From positions 1 through 36,840 of IMG/VR virus record IMGVR_UViG_3300014656_006064: 36,840 nt of DNA; one strand, given 5' to 3'. Positions 2,787 through 32,097 of this stretch are shown here, piece by piece. The DNA comes from a virus. Lineage: Duplodnaviria; Caudoviricetes. Every line of letters starts with the position of its first letter. Within the stretch, counting starts at the first letter, position 1. Below the pieces are notes generated by a model that saw only the letters and a list, made by a program, of their open reading frames with translations, did no database searches and had not been told where the DNA came from. Both the position numbers and the translations under genes were made by a program.

Positions 2787-4286
2787 TTATGCGACGTATT
2801 TAACGGCCCATAGATACTCGTGTACGCCGAGAGTTCGCGGGTCGGTGGTTTTGCCGGTGCGGGGGGTGCCGTTTTGGTTGTCGGTGATAATCGTACCAGC
2901 GTTAGTATTGGCGCTGCCTAAAGAAACAGCGGAAACCGCCGATCCAGATGAGGCGTTGTTGGTTTCGACATTCCATGTTACGCCCTGACGTATTAGCGTA
3001 TGCCAGTGCCCCTGTCCTCTATCCATCTTCCTAAACCCGCCGATCACTTCCCCGCCTGCGTCTCCCGCGATTACGCCGACAAAGCCGGACGATTTCCATA
3101 TCCTTGCGTTGGTCGATCCTGCGATCCGATGGGTGTAGACGATAGCGGTCTGCGCTCCGGTAGCTGGCGAGCCTGAAACGGTGGCGACTCGGGTCACGAG
3201 ATTGATCCCGGTTATCGCGTAGCTTATTCCGGCGATATCAAGGCTTCGCTGGGTCGCGGCCGTCGTGAAGTCTGTACCGTTGGCGAAGTTCGCAGGCTCG
3301 CCCGTGTTGAGGTAGTTCGAGACGATAGCGTCCTCGGTGATCGCCTTGAGGAGGGCGTTCGCGGCGGGTGTGTTCGGGAAGGTAACACTCGACCCCGACA
3401 CGGTGACGGCGTGGTCGGTGACGCCGAGTACCTTGGCCTTGATTCCGCGAAGGTAGGGGTTGGCGAGAGGATAATGAGCGAGGGAAATATCTTGGTCGAT
3501 ATTGAGGGGGATGACCGGGTTGTACTCGTCGCCTGACATTGACGAGGCGGCGTAGTCTACCGGAAGAGACTCGGCGATCATGGGAACGAGTTCGCCGAGC
3601 TTGTGGCGGTCGGCGATATTCGCGGCCCAGTTGAGCTTCGGAAGGTCGTTAATATCGTAGGTCAGTCCCTTGCTCTCGATGAAGGCCTTCATCGCAAGAT
3701 GCGCGGCGACGGCTCCCTGTAGCGCGAGGGTGGCCTGAGCCTCGGCCGCGTTCGCATCGTCGAGGACGGCCGCCATGTACGGGCTGACAGGGTACGGCCC
3801 GGCGCTTCCAGCTATGGCTATCGGGTCGCCATTAGCTCCGAAGGCAAGATACTTCGACGCTCTATCTTCCGCGCTCGGCATGTCGGGAGAGTTCGACGGG
3901 TCGGAGACCGGGAAGCGCACGATGCGCCCGACTACCTCGTCGATCTGCTGGGTGAGGGCGACCGATCGGTCGACCATCGTTTCATAGACTTCGGCGGCCT
4001 GAATGCCTCCGTCGATGAGGTCTGTCCCTTGCGACAATTCCATCTCGCGGTATATCGTGAGACGGTTAGCGGTCGGCCATGTTCCGATGCGGGTCAGGGT
4101 TCCCCCGGCCCCCGGGGAGGATACGCTGAAGTCCGATCCCTCCACGAGGTCTACGTCTCCCGAGGAGGTCGAGAGAACCGCCTTGACTTCGGAAGATACC
4201 CAAAACTTGAAACTGAACGGATAGCTCGCTACCGCTCCCCCGGATAGGTCGAACTGTACCTTTGTTGGTGTAGGTCCGAGGCTCAT
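2787..4286 (-). CDS. Tail fibre protein
   Basis: N-terminus resembles the T7 gp17-type adaptor domain (YPFSFKF..DFSV..LTIYRE..DRSVALTQQ); C-terminal QGHWH...GTPRTGKTTDPR fibre-tip motif. Confidence 0.85.
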   Translation of the reverse strand: MSLGPTPTKVQFDLSGGAVASYPFSFKFWVSSEVKAVLSTSSGDVDLVEGSDFSVSSPGAGGTLTRIGTWPTANRLTIYREMELSQGTDLIDGGIQAAEVYETMVDRSVALTQQIDEVVGRIVRFPVSDPSNSPDMPSAEDRASKYLAFGANGDPIAIAGSAGPYPVSPYMAAVLDDANAAEAQATLALQGAVAAHLAMKAFIESKGLTYDINDLPKLNWAANIADRHKLGELVPMIAESLPVDYAASSMSGDEYNPVIPLNIDQDISLAHYPLANPYLRGIKAKVLGVTDHAVTVSGSSVTFPNTPAANALLKAITEDAIVSNYLNTGEPANFANGTDFTTAATQRSLDIAGISYAITGINLVTRVATVSGSPATGAQTAIVYTHRIAGSTNARIWKSSGFVGVIAGDAGGEVIGGFRKMDRGQGHWHTLIRQGVTWNVETNNASSGSAVSAVSLGSANTNAGTIITDNQNGTPRTGKTTDPRTLGVHEYLWAVKYVA

Positions 4287-7200
4287 TGCTTATCTCCTTT
4301 CCCCTCGATGAGGGAGCCTAGATTCTTTGCATACTCTTCAATCGCGAGAGTCGGCATTCCGGTTGCGAGTCCCACGCCCTCGGCGAAGTTCTGCGCGGCC
4401 TTTTCTATATCGCCCTTGCTGAGTGAATCGAATCCCTGAATGATCGCCGAGACCGTGGGGAGGGTGTCCTCGCCGAACGGCAATCGCTTGTCGCCCGAGA
4501 CCATGCGCTTCATGACGCCAGTAAATTCCTGCCCGATGAGCGGGACCGAATCGGTGAACTGGGTCATGGAGTAGAACAGCCATTGCCTCCACCATTCGTC
4601 GGGGTCATCGGGGGGAGGGTCTTTCCCGAGGCTCTTCGCGAAGGCGCCGAGGAGCGTCCCGGCGATGGCGTAGGAAGCAACGATACCGATGGCCTGACCG
4701 TATTCCTTTTCGCGGATGGCCTTCGGGACGCCATGGGCGATGTTGTTGTAGACGGTGTTCAGGGACGAGGTGAACATGAGCAAGATACGTTTCCACTCGT
4801 TCATATCGCGGTAGATAGGGGCTAAGTCTGCGGGGTTCGCGGATGGCTGAGTCTGGAAGGTGATGTCGTCGGCCTTCTTGATCGCGTCTTCTTCTGTCGC
4901 GCCGGCGGCGAGCTCCTTGTCGTAGACGCCTTTCCAGCCTATCGCGACGCTGATTCGGTCGGCGAACTCAAGGCCCTTCATGCCCGTGGTGCCGATCTTC
5001 TTGATGAGCCCTTCCCAGCCTTCCGCGTCCATCGCCTTGATCGCCTCGAATAGCTGGTCGATGGTGCGGGATTGAAGCATTTCGCTCTTGCCTTCGATCT
5101 CCTCGATGAACTTGAGCATGTGGCCCGATCCTATGGCCTCAAAGGCCGCGGCGAGGGTTTCCTTCGGGGCGTAGGCCATGTACGGGAGGGGCGAGGTGAT
5201 AAGCTGCTTGACGACGCTCGTCCAGCGGAACGCGAGGAAGCCGACGGCCTGGTATCCGCGGAGCTTCTTCAGGGCTTTGTCTCCTGGGGTATGGCCGCTT
5301 GAATCGCCGTCGGCGCTGGCGATTGCGCCGATGTACTTGTCGACGTACTCCATGCCGTCCTTGCCGTAGGTCTGTATGATTCCCTCGCGGACGGCCTTCG
5401 ATAGTTGCTGGTTCTGGTAGACCGCGTGGAGCTTCTTCACGTAGGCGCCGTAAGCTATAAGGTGCTCCTGGGTATCCACGGCGTCCTCGAACATGGATAC
5501 GATGTCCATGACGCGGACAGGGCTTTGATGCTCGGGGGCGATGTTGATACGCGCGATGGTGAAGCCGGACTCGGGGTTGACGACGAATCCGTACTTGGCT
5601 TTCATCGAGTCGATGATCGAGTCCTTCTGCGACTCGAAGTACGCGCCCTCGCGGTACAGGGGCGAGTAGTTCTTCTCGGGCTTCATTTCCTCGTTCGTCA
5701 GTTCGATGACGGCCTTGTTCTGCCTGTCGAATTCCGCGCTGCCGAAGCCCTCGGCGATCATGTCGATGATCTCTTTCTCGCCAGTGGTGAGGTTCTGGTC
5801 TATCGCTCTGGTAAGCTTCAGGTACTTGGCGTCGCCGTTGGCCTGCAGGAAGTCGCGGGTCATCTTCGTGCGCTCATGCTCGGAGAATAGATTCCCGTAG
5901 ATAAACGCGGCCCGGCCCTTATCGTTTCGGAGGAGGAGGGAGACGTGAGCGAGGCGCGCGGCGCTCATCGTGACATCGGTCGCGCCCGGGCCGATGCCGG
6001 GAATTGTGATTTTCCGCTGACGCTCCTTCTGCGTCATCTTGAGCTCGCGCATACGGGTCTGCACCTTGCGGAGCCTGCGGACCTTTTCCCGTTGCTTCTG
6101 GCGGCGCGCCTCGTACTCATCCTTGACGAGGAGCTTCGTATTCACTCCTTCAATTCCGTTGTCCAGGAGCGGAGCGAAGTAGCGCATTTTCATCGCCGGA
6201 AGCTCCCAGGTCGCGAAGCCTTCCATCTTCTTTCGGATGGCCTTCTCCTCCTCGGAGCCATGGGCGGCGGGCGCTTTGTACCGCTTGTTCTTTCTGATGC
6301 CGTTCTCGATTTCGTACCGATCCGCGGAGGCCTCCCGGTTCTCCATCATCTTCTTGAGGTCATAGGCCTCTCGGCCTTCCTTGGCGATGCGGTCGATTAT
6401 GGATCGAAGGTCTTGCAGTTCGGCTAGGGTCCACGCGGAGAAGGGCTTATCGTTGATCCGGTCGACGGTCTCGTTCGTGAGGATCTTTATAAGGCTCGGA
6501 GACTCGCGGAGGAGCATCGAGAGCGCGGCCTTCATGTTCTCGGCCTGTACGGTGGTATACCGGGGGACCTTGTGCTTCTTCCCGTCCTCACCGACTACCG
6601 TGTCGTAGGCGCGTCGTCGGCGCTTCTTCCCGGTGTCGTCCTGCTCCTCGATGTACTCCCATTTCTTCGATCGTAGGTATTCCTGAATCGTGAGGATTTC
6701 CTGACGCTTCTCCCATATGATGTTCTTCGCGGGCTTCTTCATGATCGCCCTGCGGTTCGCGTCCCGCTGCGCCCGGAGCTTCGCGGTCGCCCGTATCTCG
6801 GCGGCTACGAAGCGAGCCTGGAATGCGGCCTCCTTACGGGCCTCGTTCAGGGCGGCGAGGTATTCCTTCTTGGCGATCTTCGCGGAGAGCTTGGACTCGT
6901 CGCGCGCGGATCCTAGGGCTTCCACGTAGGCGGACTTCGCGGCCTCGACGCGCTCCTTGGCGGCCTTGACCTTCGCGAGCTCCTTGCCCTTCGACTCGAG
7001 GGCCTTGGCCGCGGTCTTGGATCGGTCGTACATCTTGAGAGCGAAGTCGCTCTCTGCTTCGAGCTTGCCGCCCAGCTTCTCTATCTCGGCCTTCGCGTCC
7101 TCGGATTCCTTCGTGAGGAGTTTCTTGGACTCCTCGAGGCGGCGCACGTAGTCGGAGAGGTAGTCGTCATCGTACTCGCCAGCCTTGATCCGGTCGCGGA

Positions 7201-10200
7201 CTTCCTTATCGCTGATGTTGTTGAGGAGCGCGGTACGCTCGGCGATGGACATATCGGCGTATCGCTCGAGCTTCGGGTCGGGGATAGACTGTAGCTTCTC
7301 GCGCCCGGCTTCGGCGTACTGCGCGAGGTCGAGGTCGCCGGTCAGCTCGGCATAGAGCGCGGCGAATTCTATCTCATTGTGGCGGATATAGGTCAGGATA
7401 GCTTTACGGGTCGAGGGGGAGAGCTTCTTTCCTTGGCCTACGGACTGCGCGGACAGAAGAACAAGCGGGTGATCCGCGAGGCGCCGGGAGAGCTCGACCT
7501 TCCATTCCTCGGATTTCTCGATCTCGGCCTGTTCCTCCTCGTCCATAGCTTGACCCACGTCGAACGCCTGAACCTCGGCGTCCCATATCGAGGCGAGGAG
7601 ATTTTCAACTCCCCCGGCCTTCGCCATGCTCGCGGCGAATTCTCCTCGTCTGGCTTCCTTCCGGGCCTCTACGCGCTTGCCTGCCGCTTCCTCTTCGGCC
7701 TTGGCGCGTACCGCCTCCCAACGGGTGCGATACCAGTCGTCGAGGTCTTTCCCTTCAAGGTCGCCGGGACGGGCCTGCTCGGTAATCCATTCGGAGGTCG
7801 CCTCCTCGTCGGCCTTCCATGCCTGCCAGGTATCGTATTTGGCAGCCTCAGCGTTGATGGACTCGTCGTCGAGCTGGAAGAGGGTCGTATCGTCGAATTC
7901 TTCCTCAAACAAGAAATCGGGCTTGACGCTGCGGATAAGCTCTACTATTCTATTCCTATGGGGTTCATGCCCCACAGAAGAAGCCGCCGCCCCGGATTCG
8001 ATAAGCCGGTCAGCCGCGGCTTCTTTCTTTTCAACTTGCCAGTTCTTGAGCTGGTCAAGCTGTTCTCGGCCTTGATAGACCTGAGTCGTCAAGGTCACAA
8101 ATCTTGGCTCCCCGTCGAGCTCGATCCATGCCGCATAATGTCGAGCCTCATGAATACGCTTAACATCTGGCTTGCGATTTTTCTCCGCATCCAGAAATAT
8201 CGCTTTTTCAACGATCTCCGGCAGGTCTGAAACAATGGCGGCGGTATCGCGCTTGGCAAGGTGTTGGGACACCTTCTTAGCCGCGCTGATCACGAGCTCC
8301 ACCTCGCGCCCGGTATCTCTATTTACGACGTTGCTGAAGGTGCGGAACCTCTCAACCATCCATCGCCGAACGTCAGAAGTAGCCGTGGGAAGCCTGGGGG
8401 TCGTGACTCTAATTGGATCCATTTCCTCGATCCTGCCAACGGTCTCCTCGTCAAGCTGGAACAGTACTACGGCATCTTCCGTCGCTATATTCTCGCTCGA
8501 ATACGGGGCGATGGCTTCACACTGCTCGGGCGACAAGCCCATTCGAGAGGCCGCGTCGCGGGCTTCGATCTCGCCGGCGGTGTTCCAATACATATCAAGA
8601 CCGACAATCCCGGTTTTCCCTTGAAGTTCTTGAATACGTGGAATAATTAGCTGGCGCTCATTCATTAAGGCGTTATACTTTTTCGTGTCGCTTTTCTTAT
8701 CTGCTTCTTTCATGGCAGCATTCAATTCATCAACTAGTTCGTTTAGGCGCTTATATTCATCTCTGAATTGTTTTGGATCGGAGCCACGAGAAAACCCTTC
8801 GATATCCTGAATTGCATGCTGCAGTTCATGGATAATGGTTTTCTTTGCTTCTTCTCGACTTGTTGCACTGATGCGTAGTTCTGCTTCCCGCCCTTTATAG
8901 GTCAAATCGCTAGGAACGGCTCTAGTATACGATCCCCTTGTGGTTGGCTCTGATTCGGTCTTTTCAAAACGGGTAAGTAGTTTTCGTAGTTGAGGGTACT
9001 TCTTGAAGAGAGTCGGGAATACTATGAGGTTTTCTAGTTCATCCCAAGTATCCCCCCAAGGCTTTTTTATCGCCAGGCGGCTATCAGTTTCAAGCCTCCA
9101 CTTCCCGTCGTACTTACCCTTGAACCATCCGGTCGCAAGGCGGATGGTCTCGCTGTCCTTCTCGGACTGCGCCATTTCCTTGGCGACCGATAGGTTCTGC
9201 CGCTCGATATCGTCGAGCTCGGCGCGTTCACCGATGTACTGGAAGAGGATCCGTGGATCGTTTGAATCCCAGGTGCCGCGATTGCCTATAGATTTTATTT
9301 GCTCCGGGTCAAGGGCTACATATTGGTCGTTCGGCCCGCCGGCGATATTGGCATCATAGGTTGTTCCTTTGATCAGGATACCATCATACCCTTCTGACCT
9401 TAGCTTTTCTCGGTAATTTTGAAGCGCCTCCTCTGGGTTCTGTAGAACCATCCCCAGCCCGCCAATATTTGCTTCTCTGGCGGTTTGTCCTGCGTGTTCA
9501 TATATGTCTGTCTTAAACTGTTGGTAGGGGTCGCCATATTGATGCTTGGCAATCTGCCCTTCTATGGTTTTCTTTTTTTGGTGTAGTTTTTCTATCTCGA
9601 CCTTTTTGCTCTCATATTCTTCTTTGGTGATTTTCTCGAATACGAGGGCATTCCACCCATATTGATTCGTGAGGGTTTTCGCCTCGTCAACAATCCCTTT
9701 TATCTGAGCCTCAAGTTCGTTAATCAGCGATTCATTAGGTTCTACGACTTCAAATACTTTGGGGTTCTTGATTGAAAGATAGACCGAGAGGATGTTCGGC
9801 TTTCTGTCTCCATACCAAAGCCCCTGAATAAATCTTTCCGCGAATTCTCTTTGGGGCGTGAACCAGAATCCAACGCCTGCCACCGTGTTAGACTGCCCTG
9901 CCTTTAAGGGGTCAAAAGCTTCAATCTCTGAGGTTGTCCCGTGATACATGACGAGCGGCTTGCCCTCGGAGTCCACGACTTTCGAGTCTCCGAACCAATT
10001 CTTGAACGCCTCGCTGTCTATGGGGTCGGCCTTCTGGAATAGCACTTCCTCCTTGCTCTCCTGCTGTACCGCTATGGCGTCTCTCGGGCCTTCTTGCTCC
10101 TCCGCTATGACCGACGTGCTGGCGGCCTCCTGTAGGGGCGATACGTCGCTCTTGAACAGTTCGTCCATGACCGCCCGGATACGGGGGTCTATGTCTGCTT

Positions 10201-12586
10201 GCTTGAGCACCTTGTCCCATAGGCGGGTGATCCATTCGGCGATGCGCTGGAACACGCCCTTCAAGCGCTCGTCCTTCGCCTCTCCATAGGACAGGTACTT
10301 CACAAGGTCATCGACGAATGCTTCTTCATGCTCGCGCGTCCACTGGCCGCCGACGATGTTATAGGCCTCCTCGAGCTTCATCCCGAGGTCGGTACCGATA
10401 AGCTGCTTGCGGAACATATGGCCGGACTCGTGGACGAACGATACGAAATCCGACTTCTCGGTGGTCATGATGAGGGCCTTCGCATCGCGGACGAATTCCC
10501 CGATGCGAAGCTCCTGGTCGCCCTTCGTGAAGAGGATCCCGGCGCGCTGGCCCTGAGCGGCGGAGACGCGGCCGGTCTTCTCGCCGATGATCTCGGGGGA
10601 GAATTCATTCTTGAGGTATTCATCGAATCCGATGCCCATGGCGTTGGCCCGGAATTCGTGCATGAGGATCGCGGCCTCGCGCTGGACGGGGGTCACGTTC
10701 GGCATCTTGTCGGCGATGACCAGGCGGAGCTTCGCGCGGGCTTTCTCGATCTCCGGGTTCCCGCCCTCGGAGAACCAATTCGCTCCGGTTCCGTGCGGAT
10801 TGGCCGCTGTGAGCCGATCCACGGCGGCGCGGGTACCGTCGGGCGCGCCGTCCGAAGCGGTAATCGGGAGACCCGGATACTTGGCGGCGAGCTCCTGAAT
10901 CGCCTCGTCGCGGACGCCCTCGTAGCCTTTCTTGAATCGGGCGTTGTCGAGGACGATCCCGTCCTCGGTGATCTCGTACTTGAGGTACCCGAGCCGTTCC
11001 TTCGTTTCGGCGTCGCCTACCTTGAGGATGGCCTCGACCTTGCCATCCTCGGAGGATTCGATAGTCTTCTCCTCGGTGTAGAGGGTGCCGGCCTCGGTGC
11101 GCTTGAAGGGTTTGACCTCTCCCTCTGGGGCGGACTCGCGGGTCTCCTTGGCTTTCTTTTGGGCCTTCTCCCATATCCTTTCGAGAGCTGCCTTTCTCTG
11201 CTTCTCCGGTACGTCCTCGACATCCTTCCACTTGGATGCGTTCTCGACGAAGGTCTCGCGGTCAGTGCTGGCCGCATATTCCTTCAGGGCTTTCGACTGT
11301 CTCGCGGCACCCTTGTACCCAATGAATGCCGAGGGGAGACCGTACCCAAGAGAAGCGAGCGCGCCGCCCTTGAAGTTCTCCCATGCGTTCGTGGCAATCT
11401 CTCCCGCCTCCGCTTGGCTCAAGCCTTTGCCCTCGAGTCCAGCGGCGACGTTCTTGATGAGGTCGGACGCAATGGACTGAAGCGCTTCCTCTGCGCCTTC
11501 CTCCACTATCTCCCCGGCATATCCCATGATCGCCGTACCGAGCGCGCCGGCCCTTCCTGAAATCAAGAGCGTTTTGGCGACGTTCCCGGATATGCCCGTG
11601 ATGGCCTCTCCGCCTAGCTTCCCGAGGAGCCCGGGGACGTTTCCAAGGAACGATTCGAGCGTCGCCTGTATCCCGCCCGAGACCATGGCGAGGGGGGAGG
11701 CGATTTCATGGGAAACGCCGTTCTTCCTCATGTCGTAATAATCCAGGGCTTCCATGATCTGCATGGAGGCCATGAAAGAGCCGGTCTTGGAAGCGGCGAG
11801 CGTGAGAGCGGATGCCATAGCGGCCGCTCCAACGGGGGCGGCAAGCCCGAACGTTGCGGCGGTGCCGCCCATAGCCGCGGTCCCCAGGCCTACCGCAGCG
11901 GCGGCGGCTCCGCCGGCTAGAAGCCCCTTCCCCATGACCTGTGCTATGAAGGGGGCGGACTCCGCGCCGAACTTCAAGGCGGTGGCTATTATTCCTCGGG
12001 GGAAGCGATCCTGCATTTTAGCCATTTCGCCATAGAGAGCGTCAATCTTGCGCTCGAGGTCTTTATCTTGCCCGCCCGTGTCCTTCCATCGTTTCGCCAG
12101 CGCGGCGGCGTCCATGGTGAGGTCTCCAACACGGAAGGAGTCGGCTATCGACTCGAAGTGCCCTTTCCCATTCGTGACATTCGGTGACTGAAGCCATGCC
12201 CGAGATATCGACTCGAGATTCGCGCGGGCATTCTCCATCGGGATACCAAGGCGCTGGGAATACATTTTAGCGCTCGCCCAATTCCAGCGCTCCGTGTCTG
12301 GATCGTCGGACAGGGAGATTGCCGAGGAGATGAGCGAATATTCATCATCGGATACAGGAATGCCATACATGGCCCGACGCTTCTGGTCTTCATACTGGCG
12401 TAGGGCCACGGCGTCCTTTTCGACCGAATCGAGAAGCGTGGACCTGGGGGCTTGCCCGCCTGCCCGTAAAGCCTTCGCGTTCGAGTCAACCGCTTGCATG
12501 AGCGACGAGCCGGAAATAGGACTCGGTAAGGGGCTCGGTGCGGCGGGGGTACTAATCGTGTCAGCAAATTCAGGTATGGGCATCAA
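4283..12586 (-). CDS. Giant internal virion/ejection protein, polyvalent (zincin, ART-PolyVal, LPD23 plus metallopeptidase, LPD3-like modules)
   Basis: 2767 aa in T7 gp16 position; HESGH..EE zincin; FKNWFGDSKVVDSEGKPLVMYHGT..GFWFT..GYDGI (ART-PolyVal); TGWFKGKYDGKWRLE plus HELQH..GEIEAR; VVNRDTGREV (LPD3-like). Confidence 0.85.
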   Translation of the reverse strand: MMPIPEFADTISTPAAPSPLPSPISGSSLMQAVDSNAKALRAGGQAPRSTLLDSVEKDAVALRQYEDQKRRAMYGIPVSDDEYSLISSAISLSDDPDTERWNWASAKMYSQRLGIPMENARANLESISRAWLQSPNVTNGKGHFESIADSFRVGDLTMDAAALAKRWKDTGGQDKDLERKIDALYGEMAKMQDRFPRGIIATALKFGAESAPFIAQVMGKGLLAGGAAAAAVGLGTAAMGGTAATFGLAAPVGAAAMASALTLAASKTGSFMASMQIMEALDYYDMRKNGVSHEIASPLAMVSGGIQATLESFLGNVPGLLGKLGGEAITGISGNVAKTLLISGRAGALGTAIMGYAGEIVEEGAEEALQSIASDLIKNVAAGLEGKGLSQAEAGEIATNAWENFKGGALASLGYGLPSAFIGYKGAARQSKALKEYAASTDRETFVENASKWKDVEDVPEKQRKAALERIWEKAQKKAKETRESAPEGEVKPFKRTEAGTLYTEEKTIESSEDGKVEAILKVGDAETKERLGYLKYEITEDGIVLDNARFKKGYEGVRDEAIQELAAKYPGLPITASDGAPDGTRAAVDRLTAANPHGTGANWFSEGGNPEIEKARAKLRLVIADKMPNVTPVQREAAILMHEFRANAMGIGFDEYLKNEFSPEIIGEKTGRVSAAQGQRAGILFTKGDQELRIGEFVRDAKALIMTTEKSDFVSFVHESGHMFRKQLIGTDLGMKLEEAYNIVGGQWTREHEEAFVDDLVKYLSYGEAKDERLKGVFQRIAEWITRLWDKVLKQADIDPRIRAVMDELFKSDVSPLQEAASTSVIAEEQEGPRDAIAVQQESKEEVLFQKADPIDSEAFKNWFGDSKVVDSEGKPLVMYHGTTSEIEAFDPLKAGQSNTVAGVGFWFTPQREFAERFIQGLWYGDRKPNILSVYLSIKNPKVFEVVEPNESLINELEAQIKGIVDEAKTLTNQYGWNALVFEKITKEEYESKKVEIEKLHQKKKTIEGQIAKHQYGDPYQQFKTDIYEHAGQTAREANIGGLGMVLQNPEEALQNYREKLRSEGYDGILIKGTTYDANIAGGPNDQYVALDPEQIKSIGNRGTWDSNDPRILFQYIGERAELDDIERQNLSVAKEMAQSEKDSETIRLATGWFKGKYDGKWRLETDSRLAIKKPWGDTWDELENLIVFPTLFKKYPQLRKLLTRFEKTESEPTTRGSYTRAVPSDLTYKGREAELRISATSREEAKKTIIHELQHAIQDIEGFSRGSDPKQFRDEYKRLNELVDELNAAMKEADKKSDTKKYNALMNERQLIIPRIQELQGKTGIVGLDMYWNTAGEIEARDAASRMGLSPEQCEAIAPYSSENIATEDAVVLFQLDEETVGRIEEMDPIRVTTPRLPTATSDVRRWMVERFRTFSNVVNRDTGREVELVISAAKKVSQHLAKRDTAAIVSDLPEIVEKAIFLDAEKNRKPDVKRIHEARHYAAWIELDGEPRFVTLTTQVYQGREQLDQLKNWQVEKKEAAADRLIESGAAASSVGHEPHRNRIVELIRSVKPDFLFEEEFDDTTLFQLDDESINAEAAKYDTWQAWKADEEATSEWITEQARPGDLEGKDLDDWYRTRWEAVRAKAEEEAAGKRVEARKEARRGEFAASMAKAGGVENLLASIWDAEVQAFDVGQAMDEEEQAEIEKSEEWKVELSRRLADHPLVLLSAQSVGQGKKLSPSTRKAILTYIRHNEIEFAALYAELTGDLDLAQYAEAGREKLQSIPDPKLERYADMSIAERTALLNNISDKEVRDRIKAGEYDDDYLSDYVRRLEESKKLLTKESEDAKAEIEKLGGKLEAESDFALKMYDRSKTAAKALESKGKELAKVKAAKERVEAAKSAYVEALGSARDESKLSAKIAKKEYLAALNEARKEAAFQARFVAAEIRATAKLRAQRDANRRAIMKKPAKNIIWEKRQEILTIQEYLRSKKWEYIEEQDDTGKKRRRRAYDTVVGEDGKKHKVPRYTTVQAENMKAALSMLLRESPSLIKILTNETVDRINDKPFSAWTLAELQDLRSIIDRIAKEGREAYDLKKMMENREASADRYEIENGIRKNKRYKAPAAHGSEEEKAIRKKMEGFATWELPAMKMRYFAPLLDNGIEGVNTKLLVKDEYEARRQKQREKVRRLRKVQTRMRELKMTQKERQRKITIPGIGPGATDVTMSAARLAHVSLLLRNDKGRAAFIYGNLFSEHERTKMTRDFLQANGDAKYLKLTRAIDQNLTTGEKEIIDMIAEGFGSAEFDRQNKAVIELTNEEMKPEKNYSPLYREGAYFESQKDSIIDSMKAKYGFVVNPESGFTIARINIAPEHQSPVRVMDIVSMFEDAVDTQEHLIAYGAYVKKLHAVYQNQQLSKAVREGIIQTYGKDGMEYVDKYIGAIASADGDSSGHTPGDKALKKLRGYQAVGFLAFRWTSVVKQLITSPLPYMAYAPKETLAAAFEAIGSGHMLKFIEEIEGKSEMLQSRTIDQLFEAIKAMDAEGWEGLIKKIGTTGMKGLEFADRISVAIGWKGVYDKELAAGATEEDAIKKADDITFQTQPSANPADLAPIYRDMNEWKRILLMFTSSLNTVYNNIAHGVPKAIREKEYGQAIGIVASYAIAGTLLGAFAKSLGKDPPPDDPDEWWRQWLFYSMTQFTDSVPLIGQEFTGVMKRMVSGDKRLPFGEDTLPTVSAIIQGFDSLSKGDIEKAAQNFAEGVGLATGMPTLAIEEYAKNLGSLIEGKGDKQ
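7923..7951 (+). promoter_or_regulatory. Sigma70-type promoter antisense to the polyvalent gene
   Basis: TTGACG (7923-7928), 17 bp, TATTCT (7946-7951). Confidence 0.7.
7958..8031 (+). ncRNA. Putative ~75-nt antisense small RNA
   Basis: Lies between the promoter and a U-tract; hairpin TGGGG-TTCATG-CCCCA then long stem AAGAAGCCGC/GCGGCTTCTT with inner CCGG/CCGG. Confidence 0.6.
7978..8031 (+). terminator. Intrinsic terminator-like structure
   Basis: 10-bp stem 7978-7987/8016-8025, running into TTCTTTCTTTT. Confidence 0.55.
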
Positions 12587-19336: not shown

Positions 19337-19516
19337 GATGACCTTCCTTGCTTGAGAAGACTTGCGCGGCTGTCTGTTGGGTCTCTTAGCGCCGTCCTGT
19401 CCCCAGTGGGAGGCGGGCTATCTACTACCTACTCGGTTTCGATGCCAGTCAAATCCTGGTCTATTACCGGCGCGTACCGTACAGCTTGCCGCTGTACCGC
19501 ATACGCGGTAGAGAGA

Positions 19517-19588
19517 TTGCGGGGAAGGGACTCGAACCCTTGTTTCCGGTTTATGAGACCGGCGTACTGGCCGCTATACGACCCCACT
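19517..19588 (-). tRNA. tRNA with CAT anticodon (Met/fMet-like), CCA not encoded
   Basis: Cloverleaf: acceptor AGTGGGG/CCCCGCA, D stem GTAT/GTAC, anticodon arm CCGGT-CTCATAA-ACCGG, T arm AAGGG-TTCGAGT-CCCTT, A73. Confidence 0.88.
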
Positions 19589-19697
19589 ACTGGCTCCCGG
19601 CTTCCACGGGATTCATCGGGTTGCTTGACGGGAGGAACCGAACCGTCTCGCTCACGACTTGGACTGGCTATTTTGCAACGGATGAACGGATACCCTA

Positions 19698-24129: not shown

Positions 24130-25065
24130 CTAATTTTCAAGGTCTGGAAAGATCATTGCCTTGACGGGCGCCAATGCGATGTCGCTGTTCAATGGTTTAA
24201 CGCCTCCCGAGAATATCCGCTCTATCTCGTCATAGCTGAATACCTGGTCTTCTGGTTCAACGAATTCCGCGAGCTGGTTCTGCGCGTACTTCAGGGCGCC
24301 CTGCTTGCTGAGTGCGAATAGCTGCTCCTCGAAATTCGTATGTCTCGGCGAGTAGTACGCCTTGATTCCCGCCTTCGCGCGGCGCACGCGGTACCTTGCT
24401 TCTGGTTCGGCCGGCAAGAGGTTTGTCCTATCGTCAGGGTCCAGCATGAACGGCGCTTTAATCTCGTACCGCTCGAAGTTCTTGTCCGTGAACGTATCAT
24501 GGAAGAACCGCCCGGGGTCTCCGCTCTTGCCATGCGGCGAGGAGATAATAAGCATCCGACATCGGGGGTTTCCGTTGAGCATCGGTATGAGGCAGTCCTC
24601 GAATATCACGTCCATTACGAAGGCGGCCTCGTCTACGATGAGCTTGTGAGGGTTCGGGTATCCACGGGCTGACACCTCCGTCGCCGGTATCACGATGATG
24701 CGCGACCCGTTGGCGAGTTCTATCTGCCTGTCCGATGACCTGACTATCTCCGGGTAGTTCGGATCGTTGAGCATGAAGGCCCGGACGAACCGCATGTCCT
24801 CGACGGCCTGGGCCTCGGTCGGGGCGGTGATGAGCGCGACGGAACCGGGGAAAAATCGCGCCAGGTGACACGGCTCGAAGCCGATCAGGAACGACTTGCC
24901 TCCTCGGCGGGCTCCGTTGATCGATATGAAGCGCCAGTCGCTGGTGATAACGTCCTGCTGCCACTCGTAGGGGTTGAAGCCGATGGATAGCGCGTACTTG
25001 AGCGGAGACAGGGTATAGAGCAAGTCCGCCCGCTCTCTACGGGGGAGGGGGAGGACAGGGGTCAA
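24130..25065 (-). CDS. Terminase large subunit, ATPase domain (separate gene)
   Basis: PYEWQ, Walker A GARRGGKS, APTEAQA, ELANGSRI, Walker B LIVDEAAF, ISSP coupling motif, QLAEFV. Confidence 0.9.
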   Translation of the reverse strand: MTPVLPLPRRERADLLYTLSPLKYALSIGFNPYEWQQDVITSDWRFISINGARRGGKSFLIGFEPCHLARFFPGSVALITAPTEAQAVEDMRFVRAFMLNDPNYPEIVRSSDRQIELANGSRIIVIPATEVSARGYPNPHKLIVDEAAFVMDVIFEDCLIPMLNGNPRCRMLIISSPHGKSGDPGRFFHDTFTDKNFERYEIKAPFMLDPDDRTNLLPAEPEARYRVRRAKAGIKAYYSPRHTNFEEQLFALSKQGALKYAQNQLAEFVEPEDQVFSYDEIERIFSGGVKPLNSDIALAPVKAMIFPDLEN

Positions 25066-25364
25066 TCATGCGCTCCGAATGTTTCGTACAAGGCGAGCGC
25101 TACATGCCCGGCGCTTCCGCCTTGCGACAGGTCGGCGATAGATTGGGCGAGGTCCATAGCCTGCTCTCTGGTAATCTTCGGTAGACTTACGACTTGCTTC
25201 TGAACGAAGAGCGGGCTCTGCCGTCCTTGTAATTCCTTGCCTAAAAATTGAATTATCTTGAGCAATTCCGGTTTCTCGAATTGCTCTATTTGTACTCCCA
25301 TAAACGTTGATACGCCGTCCAATTCTGGGAGCATTGCCTTTGCTTGTTCTAGTTTATAGTCCAT
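25062..25364 (-). CDS. Hypothetical protein, lower GC
   Basis: RBS and overlaps with both terminase genes. Confidence 0.6.
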   Translation of the reverse strand: MDYKLEQAKAMLPELDGVSTFMGVQIEQFEKPELLKIIQFLGKELQGRQSPLFVQKQVVSLPKITREQAMDLAQSIADLSQGGSAGHVALALYETFGAHD

Positions 25365-31785: not shown

Positions 31786-31971
31786 AATTAACCCCGGTTC
31801 CACCGCATCGGGGAGTTGCGCACCATTTAACGCCGTAGCCAGGCGGGTTGATCTATGCTCGCGTTTATCCGCTAGGTTTTCCTCAGCCTCAATTCAAGGC
31901 CGCGAGCCGCCCGCTACTTCTTCACCTGGATCGAAGTAGATGCTTCGCCTCTCAGCGCCATGGTAGCAAAG

Positions 31972-32097
31972 TGGAAGCGGCGGGAGTCGAACCCGCTCCC
32001 CGATTCTCACCACGCCTTCACTCTTGCGTGCCTTCGGTCGGGATGACGGCGGAGTGCTTTCGGCACCGCCAGCGTCTACCGTTTCGCCTACGCTCCC
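31972..32097 (-). ncRNA. tRNA-like element A (126 nt; acceptor, D and T arms, no canonical anticodon loop)
   Basis: Acceptor GGGAGCG/CGCTTCC-A, D arm GGCG-AAACGGTAGA-CGCT, extended hairpin GGCG-GTGC-CGAAA-GCAC-TC-CGCC, long extra arm, T arm GCGGG-TTCGACT-CCCGC. Confidence 0.75.

What the first reader, a model, noticed from the sequence alone, without database searches (positions are those of the whole stretch)
7923..8031. Complete antisense sRNA gene hidden inside the polyvalent CDS at the end of a putative toxin module
Seen on the + strand: TTGACG-17-TATTCT, likely +1 near 7958, a short hairpin, a 10-bp stem and a U-tract. All of this keeps the minus-strand ORF open; the odd peptide KKEAAA..AAASS..RIVELIRSVK is simply its reverse complement. 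It lies inside the LFQ-bounded LPD3-like cassette, so it would travel with that domain. Inference: each toxic module may carry its own RNA antidote, either cis-antisense silencing of the late mRNA in the lysogen or a protein-binding (type III-like) antitoxin. I know of no description of this arrangement, but could not search.
Basis: partly seen in the sequence, partly recalled or inferred. Interest (0 to 1): 0.88.

Follow-up and report, generated by a model that had tools for sequence, protein, structure and literature searches.

The report
Antisense RNA gene behind phage RNase
On the opposite strand of a giant phage virion-protein gene, directly behind a predicted RNA-cutting domain, lies a promoter-hairpin-terminator unit that is conserved across distant phages and rewritten to suit different host promoter types, so it is likely a small RNA gene that keeps that domain in check.

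Summary
On this locus alone it is weak; homologues decide it. Two relatives (52% and 38% protein identity) keep promoter and both hairpins with compensatory changes. Across 54 LPD3 modules an antisense promoter follows the domain in 44 (34 of 275 control windows), promoter plus terminator in 28 (9 of 275). In Bacteroidota loci the promoter is Bacteroidota-type, with fixed synonymous codons (AAA 21/21, GAT 21/21); stem arms co-vary. The unit also follows PBECR2/3 domains and lies in 3' UTRs of stand-alone genes. The LPD3 model resembles BECR RNases (Z 5.6-5.9, middling). Best reading (0.45): a type I-like cis-antisense RNA that destroys leaky late mRNA right behind the RNase domain. Rival (0.3): an RNA that binds the RNase; a G(A/U)UA loop is kept in two reading frames. 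No transcript, toxicity or rescue was shown. Not found in nine topic searches of the literature; this scan met the same design before on other DNA (four notes).

The parts
4283..12586 (-). Giant polyvalent protein gene (2767 aa) in the virion-gene block of a temperate podovirus-like provirus; modules bounded by LFQ
   Evidence: role as injected internal virion protein inferred from position and PMC5512222
7874..8455 (-). LFQ-bounded cassette: LPD3 domain plus the linker that carries the antisense unit
8075..8383 (-). LPD3 domain (PF18798), predicted BECR-like RNase fold
   Evidence: model pLDDT 92; best structural matches Z 5.6-5.9
7923..7928 (+). -35 hexamer TTGACG
   Evidence: TTGACG in L001, TTGACT in L088
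7946..7951 (+). -10 hexamer TATTCT, 17 nt from the -35
   Evidence: identical in L001 and L088 while the spacer differs
7958..8031 (+). Predicted sRNA of about 74 nt; start and end inferred
   Evidence: no transcript data
7959..7974 (+). 5' hairpin, variable in size among relatives (27 nt longer, in frame, in L001)
7977..8026 (+). Interrupted 3' hairpin (11 + 2 + 4 bp, TCA bulge), terminator-like; loop 7996-8005 holds GATA at 8000-8003
   Evidence: 58 of 61 nt identical in L001
8021..8031 (+). U-rich tail, the reverse complement of the E-K-K-E codons at the end of the domain

Best explanation
A conserved antisense promoter-hairpin-terminator unit lies directly behind the LPD3 domain and likely makes a ~75-nt RNA that would pair with the phage's late mRNA at that spot and trigger its cleavage, keeping a predicted RNase from being made in the lysogen. 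Shown: the unit, its conservation, its covariation, its host-type promoters and its link to LPD3/PBECR domains. Inferred: a host housekeeping promoter makes the RNA constitutively; the duplex is cut by RNase III; the cut leaves a stop-less message whose product ends in the RNase domain and would be tagged for proteolysis; late lytic transcription swamps the RNA; the same RNA could hit the mRNA of a superinfecting phage carrying the same cassette. Because the RNA gene is inside the cassette, the brake moves with the domain when modules are shuffled. That the unit is a real sRNA gene: about 0.88; that it acts this way: 0.45.
For: Three-member clade keeps promoter and two-hairpin fold, with 3 of 17 terminator pairs changed on both sides. 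Promoter in 44 of 54 post-LPD3 windows against 34 of 275 control and 6 of 54 sense-strand windows; with terminator 28 of 54, 9 of 275, 0 of 54. Synonymous codons fixed to spell the promoter. Cognate stem arms pair at -22.7 against -11.4 kcal/mol for swapped arms, 14 loci. Promoter type differs inside a supported LPD3 clade. Same unit in 3' UTRs of stand-alone LPD3 and PBECR genes, the layout of B. subtilis type I pairs that overlap at their 3' ends and use RNase III (PMC6562991, passages). RNA length and fold vary widely across the family, as expected if complementarity is what counts. Prophage antisense RNA against late genes has precedent: STnc6030, OOP (PMC7067206, passages).
Against: Single-locus statistics are weak. 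The RNA covers only the sequence 3' of the catalytic domain, far from any ribosome-binding site. One ORF can carry two such units (L005, L019, L035, L041), redundant if the aim is to destroy one mRNA. An unpaired G(A/U)UA loop is kept in 14 of 17 hairpins in two reading frames, which plain antisense does not need. The model does not protect the cell when the protein is made in bulk late in infection. 10 of 54 modules lack a promoter and 26 of 54 fail the promoter-plus-terminator test. Host match is imperfect: Bacteroidota-type promoters in two bins labelled Firmicutes and Azospirillum (L018, L019) and a sigma-70 type in one genome of the Bacteroidota sample (L064). LPD3 toxicity and RNase activity are only predicted.
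Confidence: 0.45

Rival explanations
1. The RNA binds and inhibits the LPD3 RNase itself (type III-like antidote or substrate decoy). It would protect the producing cell, the lysogen and a newly infected cell once phage DNA is transcribed, while cells that destroy the DNA would be left with the injected RNase.
For: One unit per RNase-type module, two in some ORFs; seen behind LPD3 and PBECR2/3 but not directly behind ART-PolyVal; G(A/U)UA loop in 14 of 17 hairpins, two codon phases, about 3 expected under synonymous recoding; it resembles GAU/GUU anticodon loops (recalled) and one top fold match, CdiA-CT Kp342, cleaves tRNA-Ile(GAU) (PMC9086364 passages); 3' hairpin 58 of 61 nt identical between window and L001 against 47-61% in the domain; a domain in mid-ORF has no room for a downstream immunity gene as MuF toxins have (PMC5576092 passages).
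Against: Loop motif was picked after seeing the data, the loci are related, and it is absent in L088, the third member of the window's clade, and in other LPD3 clades; a conserved loop also fits kissing-loop antisense pairing; high window-L001 identity runs 29 nt past the terminator (25 of 29), so recombination may explain it; no tandem repeats as in ToxI (ToxI repeats from abstract of PMC8860590).
Confidence: 0.3
2. The RNA is made but acts elsewhere (trans regulator, guide or cofactor of the domain), or is aimed mainly at rival elements carrying the same cassette.
Against: Longest perfect match elsewhere in the window is 11 nt; tight linkage to the domain end in all contexts seen.
Confidence: 0.13
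3. No functional RNA: the hairpin works in the mRNA (pause or processing site) or the pattern follows from a conserved linker peptide.
For: The sense strand folds as well; recoding null is weak at this locus; no transcript seen.
Against: Fixed synonymous codons, two different promoter consensuses, strand asymmetry (0 of 54 on the sense strand) and the same unit in non-coding 3' UTRs.
Confidence: 0.12

Closest known systems
B. subtilis prophage type I TA pairs txpA/RatA, bsrG/SR4, yonT/SR6 (PMC6562991, passages)
   Same: Convergent sRNA overlapping the 3' end of a toxin message in a prophage; RNase III route.
   Different: Their toxins are small proteins with own genes; here the partner is a predicted RNase domain in the middle of a 2767-aa virion protein and the sRNA gene is written into linker codons.
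Lambda OOP and BTP1 STnc6030 (PMC7067206, passages)
   Same: Phage antisense RNAs against the 3' part of a gene or late genes; STnc6030 overlaps a DNA-injection gene and excludes superinfection.
   Different: STnc6030 is 786 nt; neither is tied to a mobile nuclease domain or recurs across phyla with host-type promoters.
Type III TA (ToxIN, TenpIN; abstracts)
   Same: RNA partner of an RNase.
   Different: Those antitoxins are repeat RNAs that bind the toxin; here a single antisense-strand hairpin, binding untested, and a different predicted fold.
Polyvalent proteins with PBECR/LPD domains (Iyer et al. 2017, PMC5512222, passages)
   Same: The host gene is one (ART-PolyVal, LPD23, LPD3).
   Different: The paper's main text has no occurrence of 'antisense' and leaves LPD3 without a function; its FTP supplement was not seen.
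MuF toxin-immunity pairs (PMC5576092, passages)
   Same: Virion-borne toxin domains of temperate phages needing self-protection.
   Different: Protection there is a small downstream ORF, not an RNA.

Membership tests
Cis-encoded antisense sRNA gene | Promoter and intrinsic terminator on the strand opposite a gene, conserved at nucleotide level | tested here: met
Cis-encoded antisense sRNA gene | A discrete transcript | tested here: inconclusive
   no run listed; NgncR_132 could not be mapped to a domain
Type I toxin-antitoxin | sRNA complementary to the toxin mRNA, e.g. 3' overlap | tested here: met
   by position; also in stand-alone genes
Type I toxin-antitoxin | Protein is toxic and the RNA lowers its mRNA or translation | not testable with these tools
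   needs expression and rescue
Type I toxin-antitoxin | Toxin usually a small hydrophobic peptide with its own gene (abstract PMC6563280) | tested here: not met
   soluble alpha/beta domain inside a 2767-aa ORF
Type III toxin-antitoxin | Antitoxin made of tandem RNA repeats | tested here: not met
   single unit, no repeat family there
Type III toxin-antitoxin | RNA binds the toxin protein | not testable with these tools
   no protein-RNA test available
BECR-fold RNase (for LPD3) | Helix plus 4-5 strand core matching solved BECR toxins | tested here: inconclusive
   top three: 7m5f_C Z 5.9 rmsd 2.9 (83 aligned), 6cp9_A Z 5.6 rmsd 3.6 (89), 3u97_A Z 5.6 rmsd 3.4 (75); middling; Foldseek no E<=0.001
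BECR-fold RNase (for LPD3) | His in the N-terminal helix as in PBECR (PMC5512222) | tested here: inconclusive
   consensus SH in A6 and SQH in the window, but absent in L088; no superposition of active sites made
Rfam families | Match to a covariance model | tested here: not met
   none at E<=1 at this place or in 14 loci

The most novel reading that the evidence does not exclude
Phage RNase modules (LPD3, PBECR) are self-contained toxin-antidote cassettes in which the antidote is a small RNA encoded on the back of the linker codons and binds the enzyme through an anticodon-like G(A/U)UA loop. The RNase is injected with the virion and is neutralised only in cells that let the phage DNA be transcribed: an RNA-based poison-antidote against hosts that destroy incoming DNA, and a kin-immunity code among prophages.
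Probability: 0.25. Interest if true: 0.92.

Novelty: new variant of a known kind. Interest (0 to 1): 0.74.

Why it matters
Polyvalent proteins carry many predicted RNase domains with no evident immunity partner. A small RNA gene built into each such cassette would explain how they are tolerated and shuffled, gives a direct test of what LPD3 does, shows that 'conserved linker motifs' in these proteins are promoters read backwards, and points to a large unannotated sRNA class: one search returned 2117 proteins matching one LPD3 region.

Tried and rejected
No RNA holder was listed for the window; no evidence either way. Phage Mu gp30 (MuF-C) has no such unit; the next gene overlaps its stop. No close relatives in phages or plasmids collections, in the 'longer' protein search, from alignment A5 or in 351 genomes of the G003 phylum beyond one distant hit. 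First fold (6 rows, pLDDT 58) gave Z<=4.6. Foldseek gave nothing at E<=0.001. A + strand ORF (7626-8075, 149 aa) spans the unit but was not pursued: the promoter lies inside it. A sliding synonymous-null scan timed out and was replaced by a smaller one. Complex prediction was not used (no RNA partner possible). Literature: (and 106) gave no listing that describes this arrangement; most subscription papers, bioRxiv supplements and the Iyer FTP supplement were not seen.

Full report
Context. The window is a provirus record with terminase, portal-like, capsid and tubular tail genes on the minus strand. The 2767-aa ORF 4283-12586 follows them and holds ART-PolyVal, LPD23 and LPD3 domains, separated by four LFQ motifs. 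The finding lies in the linker between the LPD3 domain (8075-8383) and the closing LFQ (7874-7882).

Observation. The RNA folds at z about -5 against dinucleotide shuffles, on either strand. With the peptide fixed, 174 of 1000 recodings under ORF codon usage and 13 of 1000 under uniform usage fold as well, the promoter appears in 2-3%, and the window ranks eighth of 915 antisense windows of the ORF by raw energy. One locus alone would not carry the claim. No Rfam match.

Close relatives. L001 (52% protein identity) keeps TTGACG and TATTCT with a changed spacer, has 58 of 61 terminator bases identical against 140 of 297 and 60 of 99 in the domain, and a 5' hairpin 27 nt longer, in frame. L088 (38%) has TTGACT-17-TATTCT, a different 5' hairpin and a terminator with 3 of 17 pairs changed on both sides (16 of 500 shuffles reach this, three rows only). 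Proteins P0003 and P0004 keep the NR(I/L)V-x-L-x-R-x-VK ending.

Family test. I gathered LPD3 loci from viral contigs, genome contigs and three phylum samples: 58 modules, 54 after dropping truncated and near-identical ones. In the 309 nt after the domain, the antisense strand has a promoter in 44 of 54 and promoter plus terminator in 28 of 54; control windows of the same loci give 34 and 9 of 275, the sense strand 6 and 0 of 54; at a stricter threshold 35 and 23 of 54 against 18 and 4 of 275. Caveats: thresholds and the Bacteroidota pattern were set after viewing the loci (widened for L027), and about a third of the modules come from one Bacteroidota clade.

Host-type promoters. In Bacteroidota-labelled loci the unit starts with TTG...TATCTTTG, matching the -33/-7 consensus (consensus recalled). 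In the 21 modules with a KD motif (of 27 picked by motif), Lys is AAA in 21, Asp GAT in 21, the preceding codon ends in C in 19, against 58%, 57% and 18% upstream; the later Gln is CAA in 25 of 25 (52% upstream). Related modules in the phylum sample around a Treponema bin and in a Pasteurellaceae bin read TTGACA or TTGCAG-17-TATCAT/TATCTT/TATCGT. A starred clade joins L027 (Bacteroidota type) with L010, L031 and L041 (sigma-70 type) (one tree, no clade test). Exceptions: L018 and L019 (Bacteroidota type in bins labelled otherwise), L064 (sigma-70 type in the Bacteroidota sample), L021 (degenerate box). The peptide signature of this promoter occurs in 69 of 199 post-LPD3 windows and 0 of 3135 others in a redundant protein set.

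Structure. For 14 loci of the largest clade, each 5' arm pairs best with its own 3' arm (mean -22.7 against -11.4 kcal/mol; best partner in 13 and 11 of 14; no permutation of 100000 reached it). A two-hairpin subgroup has 8 of 23 pairs with double changes. The apical loop holds G(A/U)UA in 14 of 17 hairpins, in two codon phases, about 3 expected (post hoc, related loci, absent in L088 and other clades).

Which domains. The unit lies in non-coding 3' regions of stand-alone LPD3 genes (L048, L064; cultured phage BgManors32) and in frame in phage CF418P1. By eye it follows 6 of 10 PBECR2/PBECR3 matches viewed (of 13 found) and none of 6 ART-PolyVal ends directly (of 8 found; L066 has one about 70 codons further on, past a stop; L070 has a promoter-like match without terminator). 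Mu gp30 lacks it. The window's LPD3 model (pLDDT 92) matches two CDI toxin entries and BrnT best, at Z 5.6-5.9, with many RelE/ParE chains below: suggestive of a BECR RNase, not proof.

Mechanism. The stand-alone form has the layout of 3'-overlapping type I pairs (PMC6562991, passages); the polyvalent form is the same with the frame kept open. I therefore favour cis-antisense decay of leaky late mRNA (0.45); RNase III, tagging of the truncated product and swamping in lytic growth are inferred. Direct inhibition of the RNase (0.3) explains better the one-RNA-per-module rule, the apparent RNase specificity, the kept loop and protection during bulk synthesis. Nothing here separates them; rescue of a recoded gene would.

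Expression. No run was listed. The MS11 antisense transcript NgncR_132 (PMC4176332, supplement file 2 parts 1 and 57 of 131 and one search) could not be tied to an RNase linker.

Novelty. Iyer 2017 (passages), a 2026 BECR classification preprint (passages), PMC11980606 and Jamet 2017 do not mention the arrangement in the passages searched; nine topic searches listed nothing on it. Earlier notes of this scan describe the same design on other DNA; they are unchecked and not used as support. What this locus adds from my calls: a separate LPD3 clade, the promoter-type switch with codon-level counts, the arm-swap test and the loop motif.

Noticed in passing
window 31969-32097 (-): tRNA-like RNA with a long insert; Rfam tmRNA match 27.5 bits, below the cut-off of 47; ARAGORN does not call it. 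A further hairpin-rich stretch follows to about 31780.
   Followed up: partly
window 19515-19589 (-): tRNA with CAT anticodon between scaffold-like and major capsid genes.
   Followed up: no
window 10042, 9247, 8464, 7882 (-): Four LFQ motifs bound the ART, LPD23/peptidase and LPD3 modules; relatives use LFQ, LYQ or LFE. Possible processing or recombination sites; the modules at 8000-10000 have lower GC.
   Followed up: partly
window 24130-25364 (-): The terminase large-subunit match covers only a 311-aa ORF, with an abutting 100-aa ORF upstream; may be split.
   Followed up: no
L066, about 70-100 codons after ART-PolyVal: A complete promoter-hairpin-U unit in a linker holding a stop codon and no recognisable RNase domain: possibly an orphaned RNA gene.
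   Followed up: no
L043 versus L045: Near-identical LPD3 domains; L045 continues in frame with the antisense unit, L043 stops early and lacks it, with a different ORF following.
   Followed up: no
L035, L044, L017, L027, L041: Some units hold two stacked hairpin modules of different origin under one promoter (e.g. the CCCGA-loop-TCGGG module shared by L035 and L044), suggesting RNA modules shuffle too.
   Followed up: no
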